IMG/VR virus record: IMGVR_UViG_3300028960_000080
Span: 1-41,900 of that record
DNA length: 41,900 nucleotides
Direction: 5' to 3' (one strand)
DNA from: a virus
Taxonomy: Duplodnaviria > Heunggongvirae > Uroviricota > Caudoviricetes
A model generated the notes under the pieces. It was not told where the DNA came from. It was given only the letters and a program-made list of their open reading frames with translations, and did not search any database. The number at the start of each line of letters is the position of its first letter. The stretch's first letter is position 1. The position numbers were made by a program, and so were the translations under genes. Below, piece by piece: positions 1 through 40,975 of this stretch.

Positions 1-1284
1 TTACTTCTTCGCCTCTGCAACCACTTTGCTACCCACGCCGCGGTTATTGTATTCCCACATGCGGTTGTAGTTAGTGTCATTCAGATTGCGTTGTATTTCG
101 TCGTTATCATCAACGCTGCCGGTGTTACCCGCAAACGGACGATTAGAGATCACCGCATCAGCCCAGGGTTTGGCTGTGTTAAAACCTTCGTTGATGGCGC
201 TATCACGGATCACCACCTGACCGTTGGTATTGGCATCAACATCCAGCGAGCGACCCAGTTGCGCCACGCCATCACCGGAAGCATTGAAACGGCTGTTTAC
301 GGCGAGGAAACCGTAATAGATGTTAGACAGCGTAGCCGGTGCAAACACATACGCTTCTTGCTGAGTACGTGAGTTCACCACGCGGAATTCGGTGTTATCG
401 AACACCACTGCGCCGCGACCAGAAACGATATCCACATCCCCTTCAATGTAACTGTTGGTCACCAGAGTACGCGGCTGACGGTTGGTTTCCAGACGGTTTT
501 GCACACCACTGTTGGTGACAAAGAAGGTATTCTGACGACCGAGAATGTTGACGTTATTGATCTGCACTTTGTCACCATCAGTACGCAGTGCCACCGCCGG
601 ATGGTTACCCGCATCTACGCTATCGCCCAGCGTGTTTTCGATGGTCAGATTTTGCAGTTGCAGGCCATTGTTTTGTGACCAGAAGACCGCAGAGCAGAGA
701 ACACCGATACTGTCGCTGCGTTTGCTCTGGCAGCTATCGTACATATACCACGCTGGTTTACCTGGCATATATTTGCCGCGCGGGTTGACGTCGTGACGCC
801 AGTCGGCAGGGCTCATGCCCCCATCAAGGGAAAGCCCAATCTTCACATCAATCGGTTTTTCACCTGTACCGTACAGAGTAATTCCACCCGGAGCGGCAGG
901 GACATACACCGTTCCCTGATACTCACCAGGCATCACGGCAATATACTGGCGCTTGTTGGTGCGCTTGATAATTGCCGCATCTACCGCCGCCTGAATCGTG
1001 GTATGCGTTACACCTTGAGTACCCGCCGGGCCGACAACAAAGTCAGGTTGCGCAGGCAGGGTAATCGGGGAAGGATTCCACGCTGCCGCACCTGGTGTCA
1101 GGGATGCAAAATAGTGTTGAGCATCGAAATTCTGCGCTTCTTTTGCCGACAGAATCGGGCGAGAAGAGGTACCAGGCGCGGTTTGATCAGAAGGACGTTG
1201 ATCGGGCGGTGTTGAGCTACAGGCGGTCAGCGTCACGCCAAAAGCCAATGCCAGCGCCAGACGGGAAACTGAAAATGTGTTCAC
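1..1284 (-). CDS. ybhC: Host pectinesterase-family outer-membrane lipoprotein YbhC (complete, 427 aa)
   Basis: Full-length ORF with lipoprotein signal (LTACSS); recognised as the gene flanking attB-lambda in E. coli; stop codon at 1..3 on the minus strand. Confidence 0.85.
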   Translation of the reverse strand: MNTFSVSRLALALAFGVTLTACSSTPPDQRPSDQTAPGTSSRPILSAKEAQNFDAQHYFASLTPGAAAWNPSPITLPAQPDFVVGPAGTQGVTHTTIQAAVDAAIIKRTNKRQYIAVMPGEYQGTVYVPAAPGGITLYGTGEKPIDVKIGLSLDGGMSPADWRHDVNPRGKYMPGKPAWYMYDSCQSKRSDSIGVLCSAVFWSQNNGLQLQNLTIENTLGDSVDAGNHPAVALRTDGDKVQINNVNILGRQNTFFVTNSGVQNRLETNRQPRTLVTNSYIEGDVDIVSGRGAVVFDNTEFRVVNSRTQQEAYVFAPATLSNIYYGFLAVNSRFNASGDGVAQLGRSLDVDANTNGQVVIRDSAINEGFNTAKPWADAVISNRPFAGNTGSVDDNDEIQRNLNDTNYNRMWEYNNRGVGSKVVAEAKK

Positions 1285-1418: not shown

Positions 1419-2489
1419 TTATTTGATTTCAATTTTGTCCCACTCCCTGCCTCTGTCATCACGATACTGTGATGCCATGGTGTCCGACTTATGCCCGAGA
1501 AGATGTTGAGCAAACTTATCGCTTATCTGCTTCTCATAGAGTCTTGCAGACAAACTGCGCAACTCGTGAAAGGTAGGCGGATCCCCTTCGAAGGAAAGAC
1601 CTGATGCTTTTCGTGCGCGCATAAAATACCTTGATACTGTGCCGGATGAAAGCGGTTCGCGACGAGTAGATGCAATTATGGTTTCTCCGCCAAGAATCTC
1701 TTTGCATTTATCAAGTGTTTCCTTCATTGATATTCCGAGAGCATCAACATGCAATGCTGTTGGGATGGCAATTTTTACGCCTGTTTTGCTTTGCTCGACA
1801 TAAAGATATCCATCTACGATATCAGACCACTTCATTTCGCATAAATCACCAACTCGCTGCCCGGTAACAACAGCCAGTTCCATTGCAAGTCTAAGCCAAC
1901 ATGGTGATGATTCTGCTGCTTGATAAATTTTCAGGTATTCGTCAGCCGTAAGTCTTGATCTCCTTACCTCTGATTTTGCTGCGCGAGTGGCAGCGACCGG
2001 GTTTGTTGTTATATGGCCTTCAGCTATTGCCTCTCGGAATGCATCGCTCAGTGTTGATCTGATTAACTTGGCTGACGCCGCCTTGCCCTCGTCTATGTAT
2101 CCATTGAGCATTGCTGCAATTTCTTTTGTGGTGATGTCTTCAAGTGGAACATCAGGTAGCCCCCTCCTTATTGCTTTAATTTTGCTCATGTAATTTATAA
2201 GTGTCTTCTGCTTGATTCCTCTGCTGGCGAGGATTTTTTCGTAGCGATCAAGCCATGAATGTAACGTAACAGAATTATCACTGTTGATTCTCGCTGTCAG
2301 AGGCTTGTGTTTGTGTCCTGAAAATAACTCAATGTTTGCCTGTATTGCTTCAGTAATTGCTATCCTCCTGTCTCTGCCTAATCCGAACTCTTTACCCGTC
2401 CTTGGGTCCCTGTAGCAGTAATATCCATTGTTTCTTATATAAAGGTTAGGGGGTAAATCCCGGCGCTCATGACTTCGCCTTCTTCCCAT
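1419..2489 (-). CDS. int: Tyrosine integrase, lambda Int (356 aa)
   Basis: Translation recognisable as lambda Int along its whole length (same 356-aa size; starts MGRRRSHERRDLPPNLYIRNNGYYCYRDPRTGKEF); adjacent to att core. Confidence 0.97.
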   Translation of the reverse strand: MGRRRSHERRDLPPNLYIRNNGYYCYRDPRTGKEFGLGRDRRIAITEAIQANIELFSGHKHKPLTARINSDNSVTLHSWLDRYEKILASRGIKQKTLINYMSKIKAIRRGLPDVPLEDITTKEIAAMLNGYIDEGKAASAKLIRSTLSDAFREAIAEGHITTNPVAATRAAKSEVRRSRLTADEYLKIYQAAESSPCWLRLAMELAVVTGQRVGDLCEMKWSDIVDGYLYVEQSKTGVKIAIPTALHVDALGISMKETLDKCKEILGGETIIASTRREPLSSGTVSRYFMRARKASGLSFEGDPPTFHELRSLSARLYEKQISDKFAQHLLGHKSDTMASQYRDDRGREWDKIEIK

Positions 2490-5399: not shown

Positions 5400-5700
5400 C
5401 TGCAAGGTCGGTTGGTTTCTCCACAAAACAGAGAAGAACACCTGCGGTGGCAGCCGCCCGGATGGATTGGGTTATGAGCCCGTCGTCCGGTGATGCTCTT
5501 CTCTGTTTTGTAAAAAGGACGGTACCAGCCGGAAGCAAGGGTACAAACTGGTACCGCCAGGACTACACACAGCATAAAGTTGTGGTGCCTGGTGCCTCCC
5601 GGTGCCTGGCGAAGGTTGCACACCAGACGGGTGGGTATCCACAGAAGGTCGACTGTCAGCCTCAACCTTAACCCGCGTGCGCTGAGCCGCATTCACCACA
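5400..5700. other. GC-rich structured non-coding region (candidate cis-acting RNA or sRNA) within the leftward early operon
   Basis: Perfect 15-bp inverted repeat 5423..5437 / 5497..5511; 9-bp inverted repeat 5520..5528 / 5548..5556; three GGTGCCT copies at 5584..5607; no ORF with a credible ribosome-binding site. Confidence 0.4.
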
Positions 5701-5811
5701 ACGCCAAGGATTCTCTTTGGTTGAAAATACTTAGCTGTTATGTGCCTGTCTTTTCACCACTTCAGGCTCGGTGGTATCCTTTTAAGCCCGTATACATAAA
5801 AGGAAAATCAA

Positions 5812-6057
5812 ATGACTTTTGATGAAAAAGAACTTGATAATGCAATTAATAAAATCATCGTAACGTCGCTCTTTTCCTGTCTCAGCGACACTCAGCAGAA
5901 ACAGTTCTACGAATCGGCTTTCAACATGATCGAGAGTTGTTGTTTCTGCGATGCCGACGAGTTACCTGAAATAATCAGGAAACAGTTGGCTGATGCTCTT
6001 CGAGTGCGACTTTCTGACCAATTTTCTGAAATGTGCTCTCCGAATTTGGACAAATAG
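5812..6057 (+). CDS. Hypothetical small acidic protein (81 aa), rightward, AT-rich
   Basis: ATG preceded by AAAAGGAAAA; converges on and overlaps the 91-aa minus-strand ORF by 83 nt, so one of the two may be spurious. Confidence 0.35.
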   Translation: MTFDEKELDNAINKIIVTSLFSCLSDTQQKQFYESAFNMIESCCFCDADELPEIIRKQLADALRVRLSDQFSEMCSPNLDK

Positions 6058-6250
6058 AAAAAGGCCATTTCCATTCAGGGTCTGATGGAAATACTTCAGC
6101 CTGTTCCAAAGCACGGCGTAAAGAGAATACAACTCCAGCCATAGCCTGATGTTTCCCATTGGTCCAGCTATCGCCGCTCTGATCTACAGGAGCGGCTATG
6201 TCGTATGACCAAACGACTTCACCACTATTGTTTAAAATCTGGACTTTCAT
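5975..6250 (-). CDS. Hypothetical small protein (91 aa)
   Basis: Strong GGAGG Shine-Dalgarno 8 nt upstream of ATG; co-oriented with cI and the early-left operon. Confidence 0.5.
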   Translation of the reverse strand: MKVQILNNSGEVVWSYDIAAPVDQSGDSWTNGKHQAMAGVVFSLRRALEQAEVFPSDPEWKWPFSICPNSESTFQKIGQKVALEEHQPTVS

Positions 6251-6258
6251 TTTGTTCT

Positions 6259-6480
6259 TTAACCTCCAGATTTCCGCGCATCTAAAGGTGCATTCTCATT
6301 TGGTGTGAACTGAATAGTTGTGCTGATATTGATTAATGCTCCGACACACAAGACTACGCACTCAGAGCAGATAGCAACTTCATCTTTTCCGCCTTTGGCG
6401 ATGATTTTTTTTGCCTGCAGCTCGTTTGCGCCACAAAACGAGCATGTGAAATAACGGTTCATTTGCGCTCTCTTACACAT
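6259..6480 (-). CDS. Small ClpX-type C4 zinc-finger protein (73 aa)
   Basis: CSFCG...(19 aa)...CSEC spacing matches the ClpX N-terminal zinc-binding domain; first gene downstream of the putative pL. Confidence 0.6.
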   Translation of the reverse strand: MCKRAQMNRYFTCSFCGANELQAKKIIAKGGKDEVAICSECVVLCVGALINISTTIQFTPNENAPLDARKSGG

Positions 6481-6646
6481 AGTATTTAACGAATCATCCG
6501 GTCATCCATACGCCACCGGCGGCTACTTCGTGGGCGTCCTGCCTGTTCGTTATCTTTGACATAAAATCTAACTTAACTTAGTTATTATGGCAAGAGAAAA
6601 CACCAAACTTTTCTTAGTTCGGTGCCTTAGTTAGAGAAGAGAGGTC
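6481..6646 (-). promoter_or_regulatory. Candidate oL/pL region
   Basis: Palindrome CTAACTTAACTTAG (6567..6580) resembles the oR palindrome; minus-strand TTGCCA (6592..6587) - 16 nt - TAGATT (6570..6565) overlaps it. Confidence 0.45.
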
Positions 6647-7273
6647 TTAGAGTTCGTATTGAACTCCTTTGACTACACCAATGATAAGGCAATTACCATT
6701 GATAGGGATGTTGGGATACCGAGGATTTAATGGCACTAAAAACTTTTGAGGGCCATCGATGACTAATTTTTTTACTGTAGCTTCGTTTGTTCCATCAAGT
6801 CGAGCGATGACTATTTTTCCATGACGAGGTTCTGCATCTGGATCTACAATCACTGTTGCGCCTTCTGGTATTGTTGGGAGGCCATTAGGGTTAGTCATGG
6901 AGTCACCTTTAACCTCTAATGCAAATGAGTTATCACCAATCTTTAATGATGTATCTACCCACTTGTCCACTTCACTAAACACTTCTGCTGCCCTGCACTC
7001 AGTAAACTGCCCAGCCTGAACCCACGATATTACAGGAACTCTGCGCATGTTTGTGACGAGTTTGCCTTCAAACTCAGCACCATAAAGAATGTAATCTATT
7101 GACGTATTGAAGAACTTCGCTAATTTCGAAAGTGCCTCCCCACCAGGGGTATTGATGTCTTTCTCCCAGTACCCCACAGCAACGTCGCTTACTCCACAAA
7201 ATTTACCCAATTCTTTCTGGGACGTTCTGGTAACTCTTCTCAGAGCTTTTATACGCTGACCAACCGTTTCCAT
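6647..7273 (-). CDS. cI: CI-type repressor (N-terminal HTH, C-terminal S24 LexA-like autopeptidase)
   Basis: HTH region (QKELGKFCGVSDVAVGYWE), GDSM serine motif and downstream Lys (VKKL) typical of S24 repressors; divergent from a cro-like gene. Confidence 0.9.
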   Translation of the reverse strand: METVGQRIKALRRVTRTSQKELGKFCGVSDVAVGYWEKDINTPGGEALSKLAKFFNTSIDYILYGAEFEGKLVTNMRRVPVISWVQAGQFTECRAAEVFSEVDKWVDTSLKIGDNSFALEVKGDSMTNPNGLPTIPEGATVIVDPDAEPRHGKIVIARLDGTNEATVKKLVIDGPQKFLVPLNPRYPNIPINGNCLIIGVVKGVQYEL

Positions 7274-7370: not shown

Positions 7371-7571
7371 ATGACAACTGACGATATCGAAAGCTACTTC
7401 GGCAGTATTGAGAAAGTTGCTGCTTTTTTCGGCATAACAACTGAAGCCGTTTATCAGTGGCGAAACCGTCCGGGCCAGTTAATTCCAAAAGGACGTGCAG
7501 CAGAAGCTGCATATAGAACTTGCGGACGGTTGCCATTTAAACCTGAGCTTTATGAAAAATCTAATGGATAA
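7371..7571 (+). CDS. cro: Cro-like HTH regulator (YdaS-like), 66 aa
   Basis: Small HTH protein (AAFFGITTEAVYQWRNR) divergently transcribed from cI. Confidence 0.75.
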   Translation: MTTDDIESYFGSIEKVAAFFGITTEAVYQWRNRPGQLIPKGRAAEAAYRTCGRLPFKPELYEKSNG

Positions 7572-13545: not shown

Positions 13546-14586
13546 TTAAAGTGATGCGATGATAGCCCTTCCAAGAGCTTCAGCCATCTTGGGAGGGACT
13601 GCATTCCCTATCTGTTTGGCTTTCGAGACTAAAGAGCCTGTGAAGGAATAGTCTAATGGGAAAGTCTGTAATAACGCAGCCTCTCTAACAGAAATAGCCC
13701 TATCTTGCTCTGGATGTCCGAAACGTCCATTCGAATAGCTTATACATCTAGTTGTTAATCCACTTGCTGGTTTGTCCCAAGAAAGCCGTCCATAAACATC
13801 AGTATGCCCTTTATATTTTTTATGGCATTTTAGTATAAGTTCTTCAGGCCAAGATTCTCTACCTTTTCCCTCAGGAGTCGCTTTAATACGTTTAATATTT
13901 AGATCAGATAGTTTGGCTGCTGTATGATCCATAACATCTTTATGAGTTTCACCGGCAGCAATAGGAGGTAATCCGCCGATCCAGTCTCTGACAGTTGCAT
14001 ACGGAGTTTTTAACCCATCATGAGTTTGTGATGGAAGCTTAATATTCGTGTGTTTTGACGCCAGTAAAACAAAACGTTCACGTGTTTGAGGAACCCCGAA
14101 CCACAACGCAGGAATCACACCAAAATCAACGTTGTAGTGATGATGTGCTAAAACCTCAAGAAATTTCTGGAAATTTCCATTGTTAATATCGACATTTTGG
14201 ATTCCTGGTACATTCTCTACCAGTACAAAGTCTGGCGTATAATAAGAGACAAACCGTGCAAACTCAGTAAGCAGATCTTTTCTCGGATCATCCTCGTTCC
14301 GTATTTTATTTTGTTTCGAGAATGGTTGACATGGAGCACAACCACAAAATAGGGTTAGAGCTTTGCTTTGTGTTGACGCACAAACCAGATGCTTAATTTC
14401 CTCAACGTGTGTATCTTTGATATCACCATTGATAAAATGTGCAAATGGATTATTCATTTTAAAGGTGTTAGCGGAATCTAGATCAATATCTAAACCGAAA
14501 ATAATTTCCATTCCCACCGCTTTTAGGCCTACACTGGTTCCGCCGCAGCCGGAAAAGAAATCGTAAACGTGTATCTTTTTAGCCAT
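13546..14586 (-). CDS. DNA cytosine-C5 methyltransferase (Dcm-like)
   Basis: Canonical C5-MTase motifs in order: I (DFFSGCGG), IV (GCAPCQPFS, catalytic Cys), VI (LVENV), VIII (QTRERFVLL); AT-rich by eye. Confidence 0.92.
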   Translation of the reverse strand: MAKKIHVYDFFSGCGGTSVGLKAVGMEIIFGLDIDLDSANTFKMNNPFAHFINGDIKDTHVEEIKHLVCASTQSKALTLFCGCAPCQPFSKQNKIRNEDDPRKDLLTEFARFVSYYTPDFVLVENVPGIQNVDINNGNFQKFLEVLAHHHYNVDFGVIPALWFGVPQTRERFVLLASKHTNIKLPSQTHDGLKTPYATVRDWIGGLPPIAAGETHKDVMDHTAAKLSDLNIKRIKATPEGKGRESWPEELILKCHKKYKGHTDVYGRLSWDKPASGLTTRCISYSNGRFGHPEQDRAISVREAALLQTFPLDYSFTGSLVSKAKQIGNAVPPKMAEALGRAIIASL

Positions 14587-14589
14587 TAT

Positions 14590-16380
14590 CTACCTCACTC
14601 TTGGTCTGATAGTATCATTATCTAAAAAGATTTGCAGCAACTCTCGAGTTTTTGTTAACACTTCATGATTATTTGGTATTTTATTAAGAATTCTGATTTG
14701 TGTTTCAAAGATATCGTCACTGGTAACGTTCTCCAACCCTGTGTCTAACTTACAAAGTTCTTTGGTGATTTCTTTAGCATCTTGAATGTTTTTGGGGATT
14801 TGATCTTTATATTCTTTATAATCACCATGAACATTCTCAATAAGAAATGCTTCAGGAGTATAAACAGGAAGAAAAGCAATTTTATCGTGGATGAAATCGA
14901 TAAAATTTCTTTGCATTGTGTATTTTTGATTGTTATTTGATGAGCCATTAGAACCATCACAACTAAATTTTATATCCTGATTGGTTATTTCTTTTATGAT
15001 GTTTTGAAGGTTTGTGTTTTGATTTTCTGGTATGGAATCAGAAGTTGGATAATCATCAGTTCTCGATTGGTCACCATCTAATAAGAAAATAACGTTTTTA
15101 ACATTGGCAACACATAAAGGCACAGCCAAAGTTTGAAGAATACTTCCCGCTCCTCCAGGAACATGTTTTACTTCGAAGGAGTTTAATAATGCTTCACCAC
15201 CCGCTTTAAGCGCCTTTTCTACAAACCTCTTCGCTAACCGATCTTCTACAATAACGGTTCTTTTATCAATGCGTTCACCAAGAATAAAGAAAGATTCTTC
15301 TGGACTGACATTTTGAAGAACATCAACCTTTCCTATTTTATCATTCAGACAGAATAATTTTATGGCATTTTTAGGCAAGTCTTTTACTATTGTTGATGAA
15401 TGTGTGGATATGACAATTTGATGTTTCTTTTTAAGTGCTTGTTCTGATAAAAATTCCATCAATTGACATTGAGCAGAAGGGTGAAGTGATACTTCAGGTT
15501 CATCTAGCAGAATTAAAGATGCATCAGGGCTATCCATTAGTTTATGCACTAATATAGATACAGCAAATTCCCCACTGCCTGCGAAAGCTTCAGAATATTT
15601 TAAGTTTTCTGATTGAAGAATAATTGTGGGAGCTTTGTCATTAGTGAATAAGCTATGTTCAATAAGGCGGATGCTTGTGTATTTGCGACCTAAAATCTTG
15701 CTGATTGCCTCTACCTTACTTTTTTCTAATAAAGTGTTAACAAATAGCTTGTCTTTTTTTCCTTTATGAGGTTGATATTTTTTAAGATCGTTATCTATAA
15801 TGTCTTTTAGCATCTGACTGCGTTTTCTAAGATAATCTTTCTTAGGGTATGTATGAAAATCAGAGTGATAAAAGAACTTATCAAATGCACTGATAGTTGC
15901 TCTGAAATCTAAATATATTACATTTTTGTCAATAGCTTTCCACCTGGTCCTTAGTTGATTGGTTGAGATTTTTGTACTAGGCATTGGAGCCATGTTGTCG
16001 GATTTTAATGGTCTGGATGGTTCCCAGTAATCAGGATCATTTTCTTTAGAGATTCGAGTTTTAATTACTTCAACAATTGAATCAGTAGCTTTGTCATAAT
16101 ATCCATAAATAAATCTAGAACGACCACCATCTTTAATCTCATCTACATCTGTAGAAAACCATAAGCTACCCAGAGAATAGTTGTTTGGAGAACCGAATAG
16201 GGCTCTTAAAACAGAACTTTTATTGGTTCCGTTTTGACCAACTAATGCTGTAATTGGATACTCAAAATCAATCTTGCTACCCTCTGCAAGGTTTTTAAAA
16301 AAAGGAAAACGAATATGTCTAATAAATGGCTCAATTTTAGACGATGCCATAATTTTCTTTAGTTTTAATTCTGTGCTCAT
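14590..16380 (-). CDS. ABC-type ATPase fused to a TOPRIM-like nuclease domain (OLD-family-like / fused PARIS-like), 596 aa
   Basis: Walker A (GQNGTNKSS), Walker B (LILLDEPEVSLHP), H-loop (ISTHS) in the N-terminal half; C-terminal TVIVED and FLLDGDQ fit the TOPRIM Glu and DxD motifs; 3-nt gap to the methyltransferase gene; start could instead be the ATG at 16350. Confidence 0.8.
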   Translation of the reverse strand: MSTELKLKKIMASSKIEPFIRHIRFPFFKNLAEGSKIDFEYPITALVGQNGTNKSSVLRALFGSPNNYSLGSLWFSTDVDEIKDGGRSRFIYGYYDKATDSIVEVIKTRISKENDPDYWEPSRPLKSDNMAPMPSTKISTNQLRTRWKAIDKNVIYLDFRATISAFDKFFYHSDFHTYPKKDYLRKRSQMLKDIIDNDLKKYQPHKGKKDKLFVNTLLEKSKVEAISKILGRKYTSIRLIEHSLFTNDKAPTIILQSENLKYSEAFAGSGEFAVSILVHKLMDSPDASLILLDEPEVSLHPSAQCQLMEFLSEQALKKKHQIVISTHSSTIVKDLPKNAIKLFCLNDKIGKVDVLQNVSPEESFFILGERIDKRTVIVEDRLAKRFVEKALKAGGEALLNSFEVKHVPGGAGSILQTLAVPLCVANVKNVIFLLDGDQSRTDDYPTSDSIPENQNTNLQNIIKEITNQDIKFSCDGSNGSSNNNQKYTMQRNFIDFIHDKIAFLPVYTPEAFLIENVHGDYKEYKDQIPKNIQDAKEITKELCKLDTGLENVTSDDIFETQIRILNKIPNNHEVLTKTRELLQIFLDNDTIRPRVR

Positions 16381-38226: not shown

Positions 38227-39702
38227 CTAAAGTGAATCTATTCCATTTTTCCAAATAAGAACTTTTTTGTCTTGTATTTTATGAGTGCTATCAGGCTGCC
38301 CAAACTGTTTTATGGCCTTTTCCTCTTGCTCTACATCATCAGCAATTAAAAAATTAGCTCCTTTTTGGTACCATTCTTTTTTTGATAACCAATTATATGG
38401 TGTGAATCTATCACCATACGACTCAAATGGAGCTACGTTGATATCACTAAATCCAGCAACAGATGATGCAAACCAAAATGATGCATAACCTCTTTGTAGT
38501 TTATTTTTTATTAAGAAATCTCTTAATTCTATTGTAATATCATTTTTATTAACAATGTTTTTTGTTGTTGCCATCGTTGGCAACGATAACGCAATAACGA
38601 TTAATGATATTAGTAAATTTGTCTTCACTGGTAAGGAGAAAGAATTTCTAGCAATCACAATTGACATGAAAATAAACGTTGGGACTATGTATCTAATTGA
38701 GAAAAGATTTGTTGGCCTGTCACTTGAAATATAGGCAATCAACATGACTAATGATGATACAATAAGAACCTGGTCAATAAAATCAATTTCTTTAAATTTA
38801 AGAATATTTTTATAAGATAAAAATAAGAATACGAAAATGAAAAACACCTTTATCATGGTGAATAATGAGTTAAAGCTACCTATCTCCATTCCAAACGCGT
38901 ACCCACCAAAAAATTTGAATACGCCCATGATAACAAGAGATATGTTGCTTGTTATTTGTTGAAACTCTACTATGTGAGGTTTGGTTATGCCTGGCAGGTT
39001 AAATCCACCAAGCTTAATGAATATAAATGATATGAGCTCAGCAATAAATATAGATGATATAGTGAAAACCAACAATAACAAATCATTAGTATTCAACGAA
39101 TCTCTTTTCATTAGAGAAGCATACATTCTATATATGCAAACAAAAACTATAGGTATTATAAAGGCATATTTAGATATATCATCACTAAAAACAAGCAACG
39201 ATAACATAAATACATATGGAAAAAGTAATTTTAAATCATTTTTCTTTCTGTATCTATCTATTATTAGTATGATCGCCAGCATGTAAATGTACGCACCAAT
39301 ATGTATACATGCTATAAGCATTATACTTGATGAGAAAACCGTTGGAATTCCAAATACAGAAAGAACAGGCCATAACGATGCCCTACTTTTAGTATGAGAG
39401 ATATATAGCGATAGTGTTACTAATATAGACATGAAAACTCCAGGCACAATATAGTACAGATTTTCATTAAATCCTATTATTTTTATCGCTATAGCATATG
39501 GTATTATTTCTGTGAAATAGAATGATACAGTTGATAAATCCCACCCACTGAGAAAAATATTTCCTTCAGTAATATCCCTTGCCTCTCTGAATGAAGACAT
39601 GACATCTGAGTTTGGAATTATGTTTTTAGCAATCATTGAGTAAATTATTGATAATACAATAAATGTTGCCAGCCAATATAAAAGCTCAAGCTTCTTGCTC
39701 AT
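38227..39702 (-). CDS. Serotype-specific O-antigen glucosyltransferase (GtrC-type polytopic membrane protein)
   Basis: 491-aa multi-pass membrane protein immediately downstream of gtrB; very AT-rich. Confidence 0.8.
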
Positions 39703-40616
39703 TTTTTACCCTTAAGTACATACTTTGGACGCTGCTTAACTTCAATGTAAATTCTACCAATATACTCACCGAGCACTCCAATCCCAATTAACTGGATGCC
39801 GCCAAGAAATAATATTGATACAAGAATTGAAGGGTATCCAGGTACATTATTACCAAAAATTAATTTATCAATTATCATCCATGAACCGTATGTAAATGAT
39901 ATACATGCAATAAATAACCCAATATAGGTCCACATGCGAAGCGGGAATGTTGAGAAGCTAGTGATCCCTTCCAGCGCCAAGTTCCATAGCTTCCATCCAT
40001 TGAACTTTGTGCTTCCTGCAACGCGTTCTGCTCGCGCATATTCTACGACATCGGTTCGACCACCAACCCAGCTCAGCACACCCTTCATAAACAGGTTTCG
40101 TTCTGGCATGAGCTTAATGTTTTCTACTACTTCGCGAGACATGAGCCGGAAGTCGCCAACATTCTCTTCTATCTGAGGGTTGCTGATTTTGTTATGAAGT
40201 TTATAGAACCACTCAGCAGATTTACGCTTCAGCCTGCTGTCAGTGGAGCGGTCAGAGCGTTTAGCCAGAACCATATCTGCACCGGCCTGCCATTTCTCTA
40301 TCAAGTGAGGAATAACTTCGATAGGGTCTTGCAGATCAACGTCAATCGGGATAATTGCCTCCCCGGTAGCATGGTCCAGACCTGCGAACAGGGCGGGTTC
40401 TTTGCCGAAGTTACGTGTGAACGACAGCGAAACCACAAGCGGGTCGGCAACAGCAAGCTCGTTGATAATTGATTCTGTAGCGTCTTTGCTGCCATCGTTT
40501 ATGAAGACTATCTCGACTTCATGCTGCTGAAGCCCTTCAAATTCGCGCACGGTTTTATAAAAAATAGGTATCGTGGCCTCTTCGTTAAAGACCGGAACGA
40601 CTAAAGAAATTTTCAT
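39699..40616 (-). CDS. gtrB: Bactoprenol glucosyltransferase GtrB
   Basis: GT2-family glycosyltransferase signatures ([22 protein letters not shown]) and two C-terminal transmembrane helices. Confidence 0.92.
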
Positions 40617-40975
40617 TTCGCATCCCTAAAGACAATGTATTTTGAATAAATGAACCCGCATATCAGGCTGATGGCGGAGAAGGTGACAAGAGTTATCATC
40701 GGGGGAAGTGCGCATCTATCAGCAGCCCATCCAACAGTAGCACTGAGTGTTCCCATGAACCCGACATATAACATGTAGCGCATCGTTGTAGTTGATGATT
40801 TGAATGTGAATTTTGCATTCGCGAAGAAGCTAAAACTCACAGCCACAACGAAACCTGCGAAGTTTGCCAGAGCCTGATTGGTATGCGCGGCATAGATACA
40901 TACACTAAAAACCACCCAGTGTATAAGTGTGTTCAGCACACCAATCGAGGTGTACCTTGCAAATATATTTAACAT
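40613..40975 (-). CDS. gtrA: GtrA flippase-like small membrane protein
   Basis: 120-aa four-helix membrane protein upstream of gtrB; the three genes overlap by 4 nt each. Confidence 0.85.

What the first reader, a model, noticed from the sequence alone, without database searches (positions are those of the whole stretch)
5812..6480. Small AT-rich genes beside cI, including a ClpX zinc-binding-domain-like protein and a convergent overlapping ORF pair
Directly left of the candidate pL/oL lie a 73-aa protein with the C-x2-C...C-x2-C spacing of the ClpX N-terminal zinc-binding domain (6259..6480), a 91-aa ORF with a strong GGAGG Shine-Dalgarno (5975..6250) and a convergent 81-aa ORF (5812..6057) overlapping it by 83 nt. 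This is the rexAB/N-equivalent position where lambdoid phages often carry immunity-linked or exclusion genes. A free ClpX-ZBD-like protein could modulate ClpXP-dependent proteolysis (lambda O is a ClpXP substrate) or act as a small regulator. The convergent pair could instead be a gene plus antisense arrangement.
Basis: partly seen in the sequence, partly recalled or inferred. Interest (0 to 1): 0.5.

Follow-up and report, generated by a model that had tools for sequence, protein, structure and literature searches.

The report
Swappable small-gene cassette beside phage repressor
The three small ORFs next to the prophage repressor are real genes: an optional free-standing copy of the ClpX protease's zinc-binding domain, and a head-on, end-overlapping gene pair that is one of at least ten interchangeable pairs found between the same two conserved DNA signals in many enterobacterial prophages, including e14 of E. 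coli K-12.

Summary
ORFs lie at 5812-6057 (+), 5975-6250 (-) and 6259-6480 (-), left of a real pL/oL. One correction: the zinc-finger gene starts at Met7 (6462) and encodes 67 aa.

The zinc-finger protein is a true ClpX zinc-binding-domain (ZBD) homologue. It passes Pfam PF06689 (41 bits, cut-off 27) and matches solved ZBD structures. It is under purifying selection. RefSeq already names it. It is an optional first gene of the pL operon, present in 22 of 86 sampled cassettes of this type.

Both overlapping ORFs encode proteins. They always occur together, span exactly 439 nt without gaps in lineages only about 67% identical, and each shows pN/pS of about 0.3 in its unique part.

The main new result concerns where the pair sits. 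It lies between two conserved non-coding elements: a pL leader with a covarying stem, and a 35-nt promoter-like dyad element placed 31-36 nt before the plus-strand ATG. At least ten unrelated convergent, 3'-overlapping gene pairs occupy this slot, including ymfJ/ymfI of K-12 e14.

Protein functions remain unknown. The best-supported mechanism is reciprocal antisense control between lysogeny and induction, plus a ClpX N-domain mimic that modulates ClpXP. Both are inferences.

The parts
6259..6462 (-). Gene for a free-standing 67-aa ClpX-ZBD-like zinc-ribbon protein. It is the optional first gene of the pL operon.
   Evidence: Pfam PF06689: E 1.4e-10, 41.3 bits against a cut-off of 27. The family profile hits solved ClpX ZBD 2ds5/1ovx with the Cys ligands aligned. 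Foldseek top hits are 2ds5/2ds6, TM 0.71. pN/pS 0.18. PGAP product WP_001083098.1, 'ClpX C4-type zinc finger protein'. All homologues start at Met7.
5975..6250 (-). Gene 'A' (91 aa; SfV orf33 family; PHROG 3195). It is the pL-strand member ('X') of the convergent cassette.
   Evidence: Homologues of 58-67% identity sit in the same position in Salmonella and Rac-like prophages. pN/pS is 0.33 in the non-overlapping 192 nt and 0.88 in the overlap. Intact in 48 of 48 distinct pair sequences.
5812..6057 (+). Gene 'B' (81 aa; PHROG 3311; invariant CCxC motif). It is the opposite-strand member ('Y') of the cassette.
   Evidence: Homologues of 58-63% identity are found opposite every diverged A homologue. 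pN/pS is 0.29 in the unique part and 0.54 in the overlap. Always co-occurs with A.
5975..6057 (.). 83-nt 3'-end overlap of the convergent genes A and B.
   Evidence: The overlap is 74-176 nt in other lineages. The pair spans exactly 439 nt without gaps in all lineages. No conserved intrinsic terminator lies in the overlap.
5744..5780 (+). Conserved 35-38-nt element upstream of B. It reads as a promoter: -35 TTTTCA (5751-5756), 18-nt spacer, TGgTATCCT (-10 at 5775-5780). The spacer holds the dyad ACCAC-N10-GTGGT (5756-5775).
   Evidence: Conserved in all lineages, with both halves of the dyad changed together in L009. Followed at 31-36 nt by the ATG of at least 10 unrelated ORF families. The -10-like hexamer varies almost only at positions 4-5. 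Also present upstream of ymfI in K-12 e14. Promoter activity is not shown.
6490..6547 (-). Conserved pL leader. It has a nearly invariant core, AACAGGCAGGACGCCCACGAAGTAGCC, and a covarying 5-bp stem (6515-6519 with 6498-6502).
   Evidence: Shared by SfV, ST64B, e14 and Rac-like loci and by 53 phage records. One pair is CG:6, GC:5, UA:5. 96% of cells are paired, and 0 of 500 shuffles reach the observed score.
6565..6593 (-). pL promoter (TTGCCA-17-TAGATT) with operator oL (CTAACTTAACTTAG, 6568-6581) in its spacer.
6597..6628 (-). Terminator hairpin after cI. It separates the repressor transcript from the pL operon.
   Evidence: 13-bp stem, -15.1 kcal/mol, z -2.6, followed by a U-rich run. Equivalent strong terminators occur in the other lineages.
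6647..7273 (-). cI-type repressor (HTH plus S24 peptidase). This is context, and it controls pL.
   Evidence: Pfam Peptidase_S24 at 9e-28 and HTH_3. PGAP product 'LexA family protein'.

Best explanation
The region is the promoter-proximal accessory part of the early-left (pL) operon of an SfV/e14/CPS-53-like prophage. It holds two independent modules.

(1) The zinc-finger gene, 6259-6462. It encodes a ClpX N-terminal zinc-binding domain with no ATPase. It is transcribed first from pL once cI is inactivated. I infer that it forms a ZBD-like dimer. That dimer would either compete with ClpX's own N-domains for ZBD-dependent clients and adaptors (lambda-O-type replication proteins, SspB, RssB) or pair with those N-domains. 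Either way, ClpXP proteolysis would shift early in lytic growth.

(2) The A/B pair. A (5975-6250, pL strand) and B (5812-6057, opposite strand) are both protein-coding. They form one of many interchangeable convergent, 3'-overlapping cassettes between two conserved expression signals: the pL leader and a promoter-like dyad element 31-36 nt before the Y-gene ATG. I infer an excludon-type switch:
- In the lysogen, B is made from its own promoter while pL is repressed.
- On induction, pL transcription makes A and runs antisense through B, silencing it.
- B is probably a lysogen-phase accessory or exclusion factor, and A its early-lytic counterpart or antidote.

Shown here: domain identity; that all three ORFs code for protein; the bookend architecture; cassette diversity; covariation in the leader.
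Inferred: promoter activity; reciprocal expression; all protein functions.
For: Zinc-finger gene:
- Domain and fold.
- Widespread free-standing ZBD-like proteins: 206 representatives, 14 of them close.
- Purifying selection.
- Position right after pL and its leader.
- Optional and combined with different cI types and two cassette types.

Pair:
- Co-occurrence and a fixed 439-nt span.
- pN/pS; intact ORFs.
- Same position downstream of the repressor in diverged prophages.

Slot:
- At least 10 unrelated Y families at a fixed distance from the element.
- Convergent partners overlapping by 23-176 nt.
- e14 ymfJ/ymfI flanked by the same two elements.

Expression, by analogy in K-12:
- ymfJ mRNA rises by log2 4-4.8 and YmfJ protein appears late in the SOS response; ymfI rises only by log2 1-2 (PMC11002266).
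- ymfI-ymfJ is listed among convergent excludons detected from RNA-seq coverage (PMC12288877).

Precedent: the Tha/Ith defence-inhibitor pair of phage 80alpha, arranged antisense (PMC11087260).
Against: - No expression data exist for this prophage.
- The promoter-like element scores only 8 of 12 against the sigma-70 consensus, and the scanner did not call it. In L009 the change that keeps the dyad destroys the TG of the extended -10. The dyad or hairpin may therefore be the selected feature, not the promoter.
- A and B match no known family: Pfam, NCBIfam, PADLOC and PDB are all negative.
- The structure model of A is poor, pLDDT 47.5.
- Genes that physically overlap are inherited together regardless, so co-occurrence does not prove that the proteins work together.
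- The zinc-finger gene is absent from most cassettes and frameshifted in some strains, so it is dispensable. Nothing here shows that it binds ClpX, its adaptors or its substrates.
- Its structure model has low confidence, pLDDT 51.8.
Confidence: 0.5

Rival explanations
1. Only one of the two overlapping ORFs is a gene. The other is a chance antisense ORF, or the arrangement is a gene plus a non-coding antisense RNA.
For: PGAP annotates only one of the two in any genome, and not always the same one. In the overlap the A frame is weakly constrained, pN/pS 0.88. The word-index search for B returned only near-identical proteins or frameshift variants.
Against: Both ORFs stay open in lineages about 67% identical in DNA and about 60% in protein. 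Each has the lowest pN/pS of the six frames in its unique part, 0.33 and 0.29. Both are intact in 47 of 48 distinct sequences.
Confidence: 0.08
2. The zinc-finger protein has nothing to do with ClpXP. It is a small nucleic-acid-binding or protein-binding regulator that only shares the zinc-ribbon scaffold, for example an anti-repressor, a transcription factor, or a factor acting on the structured pL leader.
For: It sits right after the conserved structured leader, in the lambda N position. There is a weak secondary match to the Elf1 zinc ribbon. Free-standing and tandem ZBD-like proteins are widespread and uncharacterised. No literature on any phage ZBD protein was found.
Against: Similarity to ClpX goes beyond the cysteines: CSFCG..K.IA....IC.ECV.LC, 36-38% identity to the solved ZBD, and no other fold comes close. 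It is absent from most loci that carry the same leader, including ST64B, which has the same stem variant. It therefore cannot be the general partner of the leader.
Confidence: 0.25
3. A and B (and the other X/Y pairs) are functionally unrelated accessory genes. They overlap only because the slot is compact and lacks terminators. There is no antidote relationship and no regulatory purpose.
For: All the cargo proteins are orphans, apart from one BssS-family Y. Overlap alone explains co-inheritance. No conserved terminator or RNA structure lies in the overlap.
Against: A 3'-overlapping convergent geometry recurs in at least 9 unrelated cassette types. In the A/B type the 439-nt span is invariant. 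Transcription of the K-12 analogue is reported to overlap.
Confidence: 0.3
4. The 35-nt element is not a promoter. It is an RNA hairpin or protein-binding dyad, for example a processing site, an insulator, or the terminator annotated on the minus strand in SfV. In that case B would be transcribed from elsewhere.
For: SfV's authors annotated a rho-independent terminator there. The scan finds a weak plus-strand terminator-like hairpin at 5756-5775. Both halves of the dyad changed together in L009.
Against: No U-run follows the hairpin on the minus strand (sequence). Sequence upstream of the element is not conserved between lineages, so no other shared promoter is visible. The distance to unrelated start codons is fixed, and variation in the TATNNT hexamer is confined almost entirely to positions 4-5.
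Confidence: 0.3

Closest known systems
N-terminal zinc-binding domain of E. coli ClpX (Pfam PF06689; PDB 1OVX, 2DS5-2DS8)
   Same: Four Cys ligands in CxxC...CxxC. Shared motif CSFCG..K.IA....IC.ECV.LC. 36-38% identity and TM 0.71 to the solved domain. F16 of the client-binding patch is conserved.
   Different: No AAA+ module. There is a 3-residue insertion in the loop before the second CxxC, and a short, variable, probably disordered tail. It is encoded by a prophage as an early pL gene. Zinc binding, dimerisation and partners are untested.
ymfJ/ymfI of the e14 prophage, E. coli K-12
   Same: Same slot. The same pL leader and the same 35-nt element flank a convergent pair with a 63-nt 3' overlap, directly left of the cI-like repressor ymfK/cohE. 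ymfJ is SOS-induced, and ymfI-ymfJ is listed as an excludon.
   Different: No detectable sequence similarity between YmfJ and A or between YmfI and B. e14 has no zinc-finger gene.
Tha/Ith 'noncontiguous operon' of Staphylococcus phage 80alpha (PMC11087260)
   Same: Two small accessory genes sit antisense to each other next to the repressor. Antisense transcription couples their balance to the lysogeny-lysis switch. One is a defence protein and the other its inhibitor, which prevents autoimmunity.
   Different: The polarity is reversed: there the defence gene is on the cI transcript and the inhibitor has its own promoter. There is no homology and no HEPN domain. No defence phenotype is known for B.
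Rac prophage sieB-ydaF; lambda OOP RNA antisense to cII; P22 sieB/esc with sas antisense RNA
   Same: These are early-region phage genes with convergent 3' overlap or antisense control. sieB-ydaF is convergent in K-12 and listed as an excludon. The OOP/cII and sieB/esc/sas cases are from my own knowledge and were not checked here.
   Different: B has no membrane segments and no similarity to SieB. OOP and sas are non-coding RNAs, whereas here both strands encode proteins.
Lambda nutL / HK022 putL (cis-acting RNA elements in the pL leader)
   Same: The conserved leader begins a few bases after the predicted pL start and contains a covarying stem-loop. No N-like arginine-rich protein was seen among the three ORFs.
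   Different: No boxA or boxB sequence. A fuzzy search found no match in the HK022 region that contains nun, pL and cI. No Rfam family matches. Function was not tested.

Membership tests
ClpX zinc-binding domain (Pfam PF06689, zf-C4_ClpX) | Profile score above the curated gathering threshold | tested here: met
   41.3 bits against a cut-off of 27, E 1.4e-10. 12 of the 15 homologues found carry a precomputed PF06689 hit.
ClpX zinc-binding domain (Pfam PF06689, zf-C4_ClpX) | Four cysteine zinc ligands, CxxC ... CxxC, aligned with ClpX C14/C17/C36/C39 | tested here: met
   C13/C16/C38/C41 of the 73-aa ORF align with the ClpX ligands. C13, C38 and C41 are invariant, and C16 is kept in at least 90% of the aligned homologues. 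The loop is 3 residues longer.
ClpX zinc-binding domain (Pfam PF06689, zf-C4_ClpX) | ZBD fold (beta-hairpin, strand, C-terminal helix) | tested here: inconclusive
   The AF2 model is low confidence, pLDDT 51.8. Even so, its only meaningful Foldseek matches are ClpX and its ZBD: a ClpX-ClpP integrative model, then 2ds5/2ds6 with TM 0.69-0.71, rmsd 1.8-2.2 A and probability 0.99.
ClpX zinc-binding domain (Pfam PF06689, zf-C4_ClpX) | Zinc binding, dimerisation, and binding of ZBD clients (SspB tail, lambda O, RssB) | not testable with these tools
   Needs biochemistry. Only conservation of the residue equivalent to F16 was seen.
ClpX unfoldase proper | AAA+ ATPase module after the ZBD | tested here: not met
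   The protein is 67 aa. It matches only positions 6-43 of the 418-position ClpX equivalog model, at 25.8 bits against a cut-off of 359.
Lambda rexAB-type immunity-operon genes | Co-transcription with cI from pRM, located between cI and pL | tested here: not met
   A terminator hairpin and pL/oL lie between cI and the three genes.
Excludon / noncontiguous operon | Neighbouring genes on opposite strands whose transcription units overlap | tested here: inconclusive
   The coding regions overlap by 83 nt and no conserved terminator lies between them. Transcripts were not measured here. The e14 analogue is listed as a convergent excludon.
Excludon / noncontiguous operon | Mutually exclusive expression of the two genes | not testable with these tools
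   The only indirect evidence is that ymfJ is strongly SOS-induced and ymfI weakly.
Type II toxin-antitoxin module | Two co-directional, co-transcribed genes, with recognisable toxin or antitoxin domains | tested here: not met
   The genes are convergent. There are no Pfam, NCBIfam or PADLOC hits.
Known anti-phage defence systems (PADLOC) | Significant match to a defence-protein model | tested here: not met
   The only hit is B against PDC-M01A at E 0.0063 and 13.6 bits, which is not credible. A and the zinc-finger protein have none.

The most novel reading that the evidence does not exclude
Lambdoid prophages of Enterobacterales carry, between a structured pL leader and a conserved outward-facing promoter, an exchangeable two-gene slot. 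Each cassette would pair a lysogen-expressed effector Y (exclusion, defence or host modulation) with a cognate early-lytic antidote X, wired head-on so that induction switches Y off and X on. This would be a general self-immunity platform built from at least ten families of uncharacterised small proteins. The optional ZBD protein would be the first phage-encoded decoy of the ClpX N-domain.
Probability: 0.2. Interest if true: 0.8.

Novelty: new variant of a known kind. Interest (0 to 1): 0.55.

Why it matters
The A/B pair is in about 10% of complete E. coli genomes (551 of 5426). In any one genome annotation only one of its two genes is called. The same slot exists in E. coli K-12 as e14 ymfJ/ymfI, so the proposed lysogeny/lysis antisense switch, and any X-Y functional pairing, can be tested directly with standard genetics.

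If the slot is a hotspot of paired effector and antidote genes, it would give access to many new families of small proteins and add a Gram-negative counterpart to the Tha/Ith paradigm. A phage-made free ClpX zinc-binding domain would be a simple natural tool for, and a new mode of, viral interference with regulated proteolysis.

The conserved pL leader, with clear covariation, is an undescribed candidate cis-regulatory RNA. It is shared by at least 53 sequenced phages of Escherichia, Salmonella, Shigella, Yersinia, Klebsiella, Pectobacterium, Providencia and Aeromonas.

Tried and rejected
- Family and structure searches for A and B gave nothing credible: Pfam, NCBIfam, PADLOC, and PDB sequence profiles.
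- AF2 of A gave pLDDT 47.5 and meaningless fold hits.
- e14 YmfJ and YmfI as sequence homologues of A and B: rejected, no BLASTP similarity. They turned out to occupy the same slot.
- An intrinsic terminator inside the A/B overlap: the window has a hairpin plus T-run at about 6066-6094 on the minus strand, but it is not conserved in other lineages.
- The pL leader as HK022 putL: no similarity. No Rfam family matches the leader or the 35-nt element. The leader's overall fold energy is unremarkable, z 0.17; only the short stem covaries.
- A genome-contig scan for A found nothing. Viral-contig scans with P0027 and P0029 found nothing.
- Literature searches for phage-encoded free ClpX ZBD proteins found nothing relevant.
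- The e14 genome paper and the K-12 dRNA-seq TSS paper were not held. The ExcludonFinder supplement was not held.
- I first read the ORF beside cI in vB_EcoS-569R4 as the zinc-finger gene. It is a different X gene.
Full report
**Context.** The window is a complete SfV/e14/CPS-53-like prophage of E. coli. It has an integrase at 1419-2489, the yfdR, yfdQ and yfdP genes, a cI-type S24 repressor at 6647-7273 (-), cro at 7371-7571 (+), a cII/YmfL-like gene, replication genes, structural genes, and a gtr O-antigen-modification cluster. Near-identical DNA occurs in many E. coli chromosomes and in phages SfV, SKA5 and vB_EcoM-720R4.

**Observation.**
- ORFs of 81 aa (5812-6057, +), 91 aa (5975-6250, -) and 73 aa (6259-6480, -) are present, and the first two overlap by 83 nt.
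- The region has GC 0.429 against 0.501 for the window.
- The pL/oL assignment holds.
  - A sigma-70-type promoter, TTGCCA-17-TAGATT, lies at 6593-6565 on the minus strand.
  - Its spacer contains CTAACTTAACTTAG. This is one of only three sites in the window that match CTAANNNNNCTTAG. The other two lie between cI and cro, and 0.22 matches are expected by chance.
  - A -15.1 kcal/mol hairpin with a U-rich tail separates cI from pL.
- The three ORFs therefore lie downstream of pL, in the lambda N position. They are not inside the cI transcript as rexAB is.

**The zinc-finger gene.**
- The 73-aa ORF passes Pfam PF06689 (ClpX C4 zinc finger) at 41.3 bits against a cut-off of 27.
- A profile of its homologues hits the solved ClpX zinc-binding domain (2ds5, 1ovx), with the cysteines and the motif CSFCG..K.IA....IC.ECV.LC aligned.
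- The AlphaFold model is weak, pLDDT 51.8. Its only meaningful structural matches are ClpX and its ZBD, with TM 0.71, rmsd about 2 A and 36-38% identity to 2ds5/2ds6.
- All homologues begin at Met7, as does the RefSeq product 'ClpX C4-type zinc finger protein', so the gene is 6259-6462 and encodes 67 aa.
- Against the 76%-identical homologue of Salmonella phage 118970_sal3, pN is 0.16 and pS 0.87.
- An exhaustive profile search found 206 cluster representatives. Fourteen are close (the enterobacterial prophage subfamily), and many are free-standing or tandem ZBD-like proteins of 50-130 aa.
- The gene is optional. It follows the pL leader directly, and its last codons supply the GGAGG for the next gene.
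  - It occurs with at least three repressor types.
  - It is absent from SfV and from loci with an identical cI.
  - It is frameshifted in some strains.
  - It occurs in 22 of 86 A/B cassettes and in 4 of 4 cassettes of an unrelated 74-aa type.
- I found no literature on any phage-encoded free ZBD.
- Published work shows that the ClpX ZBD is required for lambda O degradation. It also shows that SspB, RssB and trigger factor dock on a hydrophobic patch that includes F16 and I46 (PMC7804408). F16 is conserved here.
- The ClpXP-modulator idea is therefore plausible but untested.

**The overlapping pair.**
- Word-index searches gave true diverged homologues of the 91-aa protein A, at 58-67% identity, in Salmonella and in Rac-like prophages.
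- In every such locus A lies just downstream of a repressor gene.
- A homologue of the 81-aa protein B, at 58-63% identity, lies on the opposite strand in each case.
- Across all 88 loci that carry A, B is also present at fixed geometry.
- The pair spans exactly 439 nt, without gaps, in lineages only 66-70% identical in DNA.
- Nei-Gojobori counts give these pN/pS values:
  - 0.33 for the A frame in its unique 192 nt;
  - 0.29 for the B frame in its unique 162 nt;
  - 0.88 (A) and 0.54 (B) in the overlap;
  - more than 1.5 where either frame is read beyond its stop.
- Both ORFs are open in 47 of 48 distinct pair sequences.
- Both are therefore genes. The C-terminal tail of A is weakly constrained.
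- PGAP annotates only one of the two, inconsistently.
- The pair is in 551 of 5426 complete E. coli genomes.

**The slot.**
- Upstream of B, all lineages share GCCTGTCTTTTCACCACTTCAGGCTCGGTGGTATCCTT (window 5744-5780 plus one base), while the sequence further upstream is unrelated.
- A scan of viral contigs for this element showed that it is followed, 31-36 nt later, by the ATG of at least ten unrelated ORF families. B is the commonest (86 of 108 loci). One family belongs to Pfam BssS. The rest have no Pfam match.
- On the other side, the start of the pL transcript is a conserved leader (window 6547-6490, minus strand), shared by SfV, ST64B, e14, Rac-like loci and 53 phage records.
- The leader's short stem covaries. 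One pair is CG:6, GC:5, UA:5. 96% of cells are paired against 83% in shuffles, and 0 of 500 shuffles reach the observed score.
- Between the two elements lie 420-750 bp. In at least nine cassette types this holds a pL-strand gene X and an opposite-strand gene Y whose 3' ends overlap by 23-176 nt.
- E. coli K-12 e14 has both elements flanking ymfJ (X) and ymfI (Y), which overlap by 63 nt. They show no sequence similarity to A or B.
- Tandem cassettes also occur.

**Mechanism.**
- The element reads as a promoter: -35 TTTTCA, an 18-nt spacer, and an extended -10, TGgTATCCT. The dyad ACCAC-N10-GTGGT sits in the spacer.
- Among variants the hexamer changes almost only at positions 4-5 (TATCTT, TATTCT, TATGCT). 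One locus carries a position-1 change, GATCCT.
- In L009, however, both halves of the dyad change together in a way that removes the TG. The element was also not called by the scanner. Promoter activity therefore remains an inference.
- No conserved terminator separates A from B.
- In K-12, ymfJ mRNA and protein are induced late in the SOS response, along with other genes under e14 repressor control, while ymfI changes little (PMC11002266). ymfI-ymfJ is listed among convergent excludons detected from RNA-seq coverage (PMC12288877).
- The closest functional precedent is Tha/Ith of phage 80alpha, a defence protein and its inhibitor arranged antisense next to cI. Antisense transcription there couples immunity to the life cycle (PMC11087260).
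- I therefore propose that B is made in the lysogen and A on induction, and that pL transcription silences B. A and B may be an effector-antidote pair, and that last step has the least support.

**Limits.**
- The functions of all three proteins are unknown.
- Overlap alone explains why A and B are inherited together.
- No expression data exist for this element.

**Verdict.** The finding is ordinary in that these are small accessory genes in the early region of a prophage. It is unexpectedly structured in that they sit on a conserved, modular expression platform that includes a K-12 locus.

Noticed in passing
window 6490-6547 (- strand); also e14 (L010), ST64B (L098), SfV (L002): A conserved pL leader starts a few bases after the predicted pL start. 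It has a nearly invariant 27-nt core and a 5-bp stem with clear compensatory changes. It occurs in 53 phage records across at least eight genera, is unannotated, has no Rfam match, and is not similar to HK022 putL. It is a candidate nut/put-like or translational control element.
   Followed up: partly
window 5509-5724 (- strand): Sub-threshold match to the Rfam sRNA STnc100 (30.3 bits against a gathering score of 47, E 3.8e-4). It ends in a hairpin plus U-run. It lies where PGAP calls a 'frameshifted hypothetical protein' and where K-12 e14 has ymfH. It may be an sRNA, or a processed piece of the pL transcript, mis-annotated as a pseudogene.
   Followed up: no
window 13546-16380 (- strand), GC 0.33-0.38: Low-GC island inside the prophage. 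It encodes a C-5 cytosine DNA methylase (346 aa) next to a 596-aa AAA_15/AAA_21 (AbiEii/OLD-like) ATPase. This is a possible defence or restriction-related cargo module.
   Followed up: no
window 38227-40975 (- strand), GC 0.29-0.35: gtrA-like (120 aa) and gtrB-like (305 aa, GT2) genes plus a 491-aa orphan protein. This is a serotype-converting O-antigen glucosylation cluster at the prophage end, as in SfV.
   Followed up: no
window 2-1284 (- strand) and 1419-2489 (- strand): A pectinesterase-like host gene sits next to a lambda-type integrase with an Arm-DNA-binding domain. This marks the left prophage boundary. From memory, the host gene resembles ybhC beside the lambda attachment site, which was not checked.
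   Followed up: no
L168, L029, L031, L038 (IMG/VR loci): Some prophages carry two cassettes in tandem, each with its own copy of the 35-nt element. The distance from the element to the leader is then 904-1379 nt instead of 420-750 nt.
   Followed up: partly
P0013, P0012, P0070 and locus L181: In Salmonella, the zinc-finger gene is fused in frame to the next small X gene. In L181 the finger is truncated and fused. The junction between the two genes is therefore unstable.
   Followed up: no
P0069: A 2505-aa protein with 37 separate matches to the ZBD-like profile (E 5e-80). It is a giant tandem array of ClpX-type zinc fingers of unknown origin.
   Followed up: no
L166, L196 (IMG/VR loci): One alternative Y cargo (83 aa) belongs to the BssS biofilm-regulator family (Pfam PF13991, E 2e-15). 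It is the only cargo in the slot with any family assignment.
   Followed up: no
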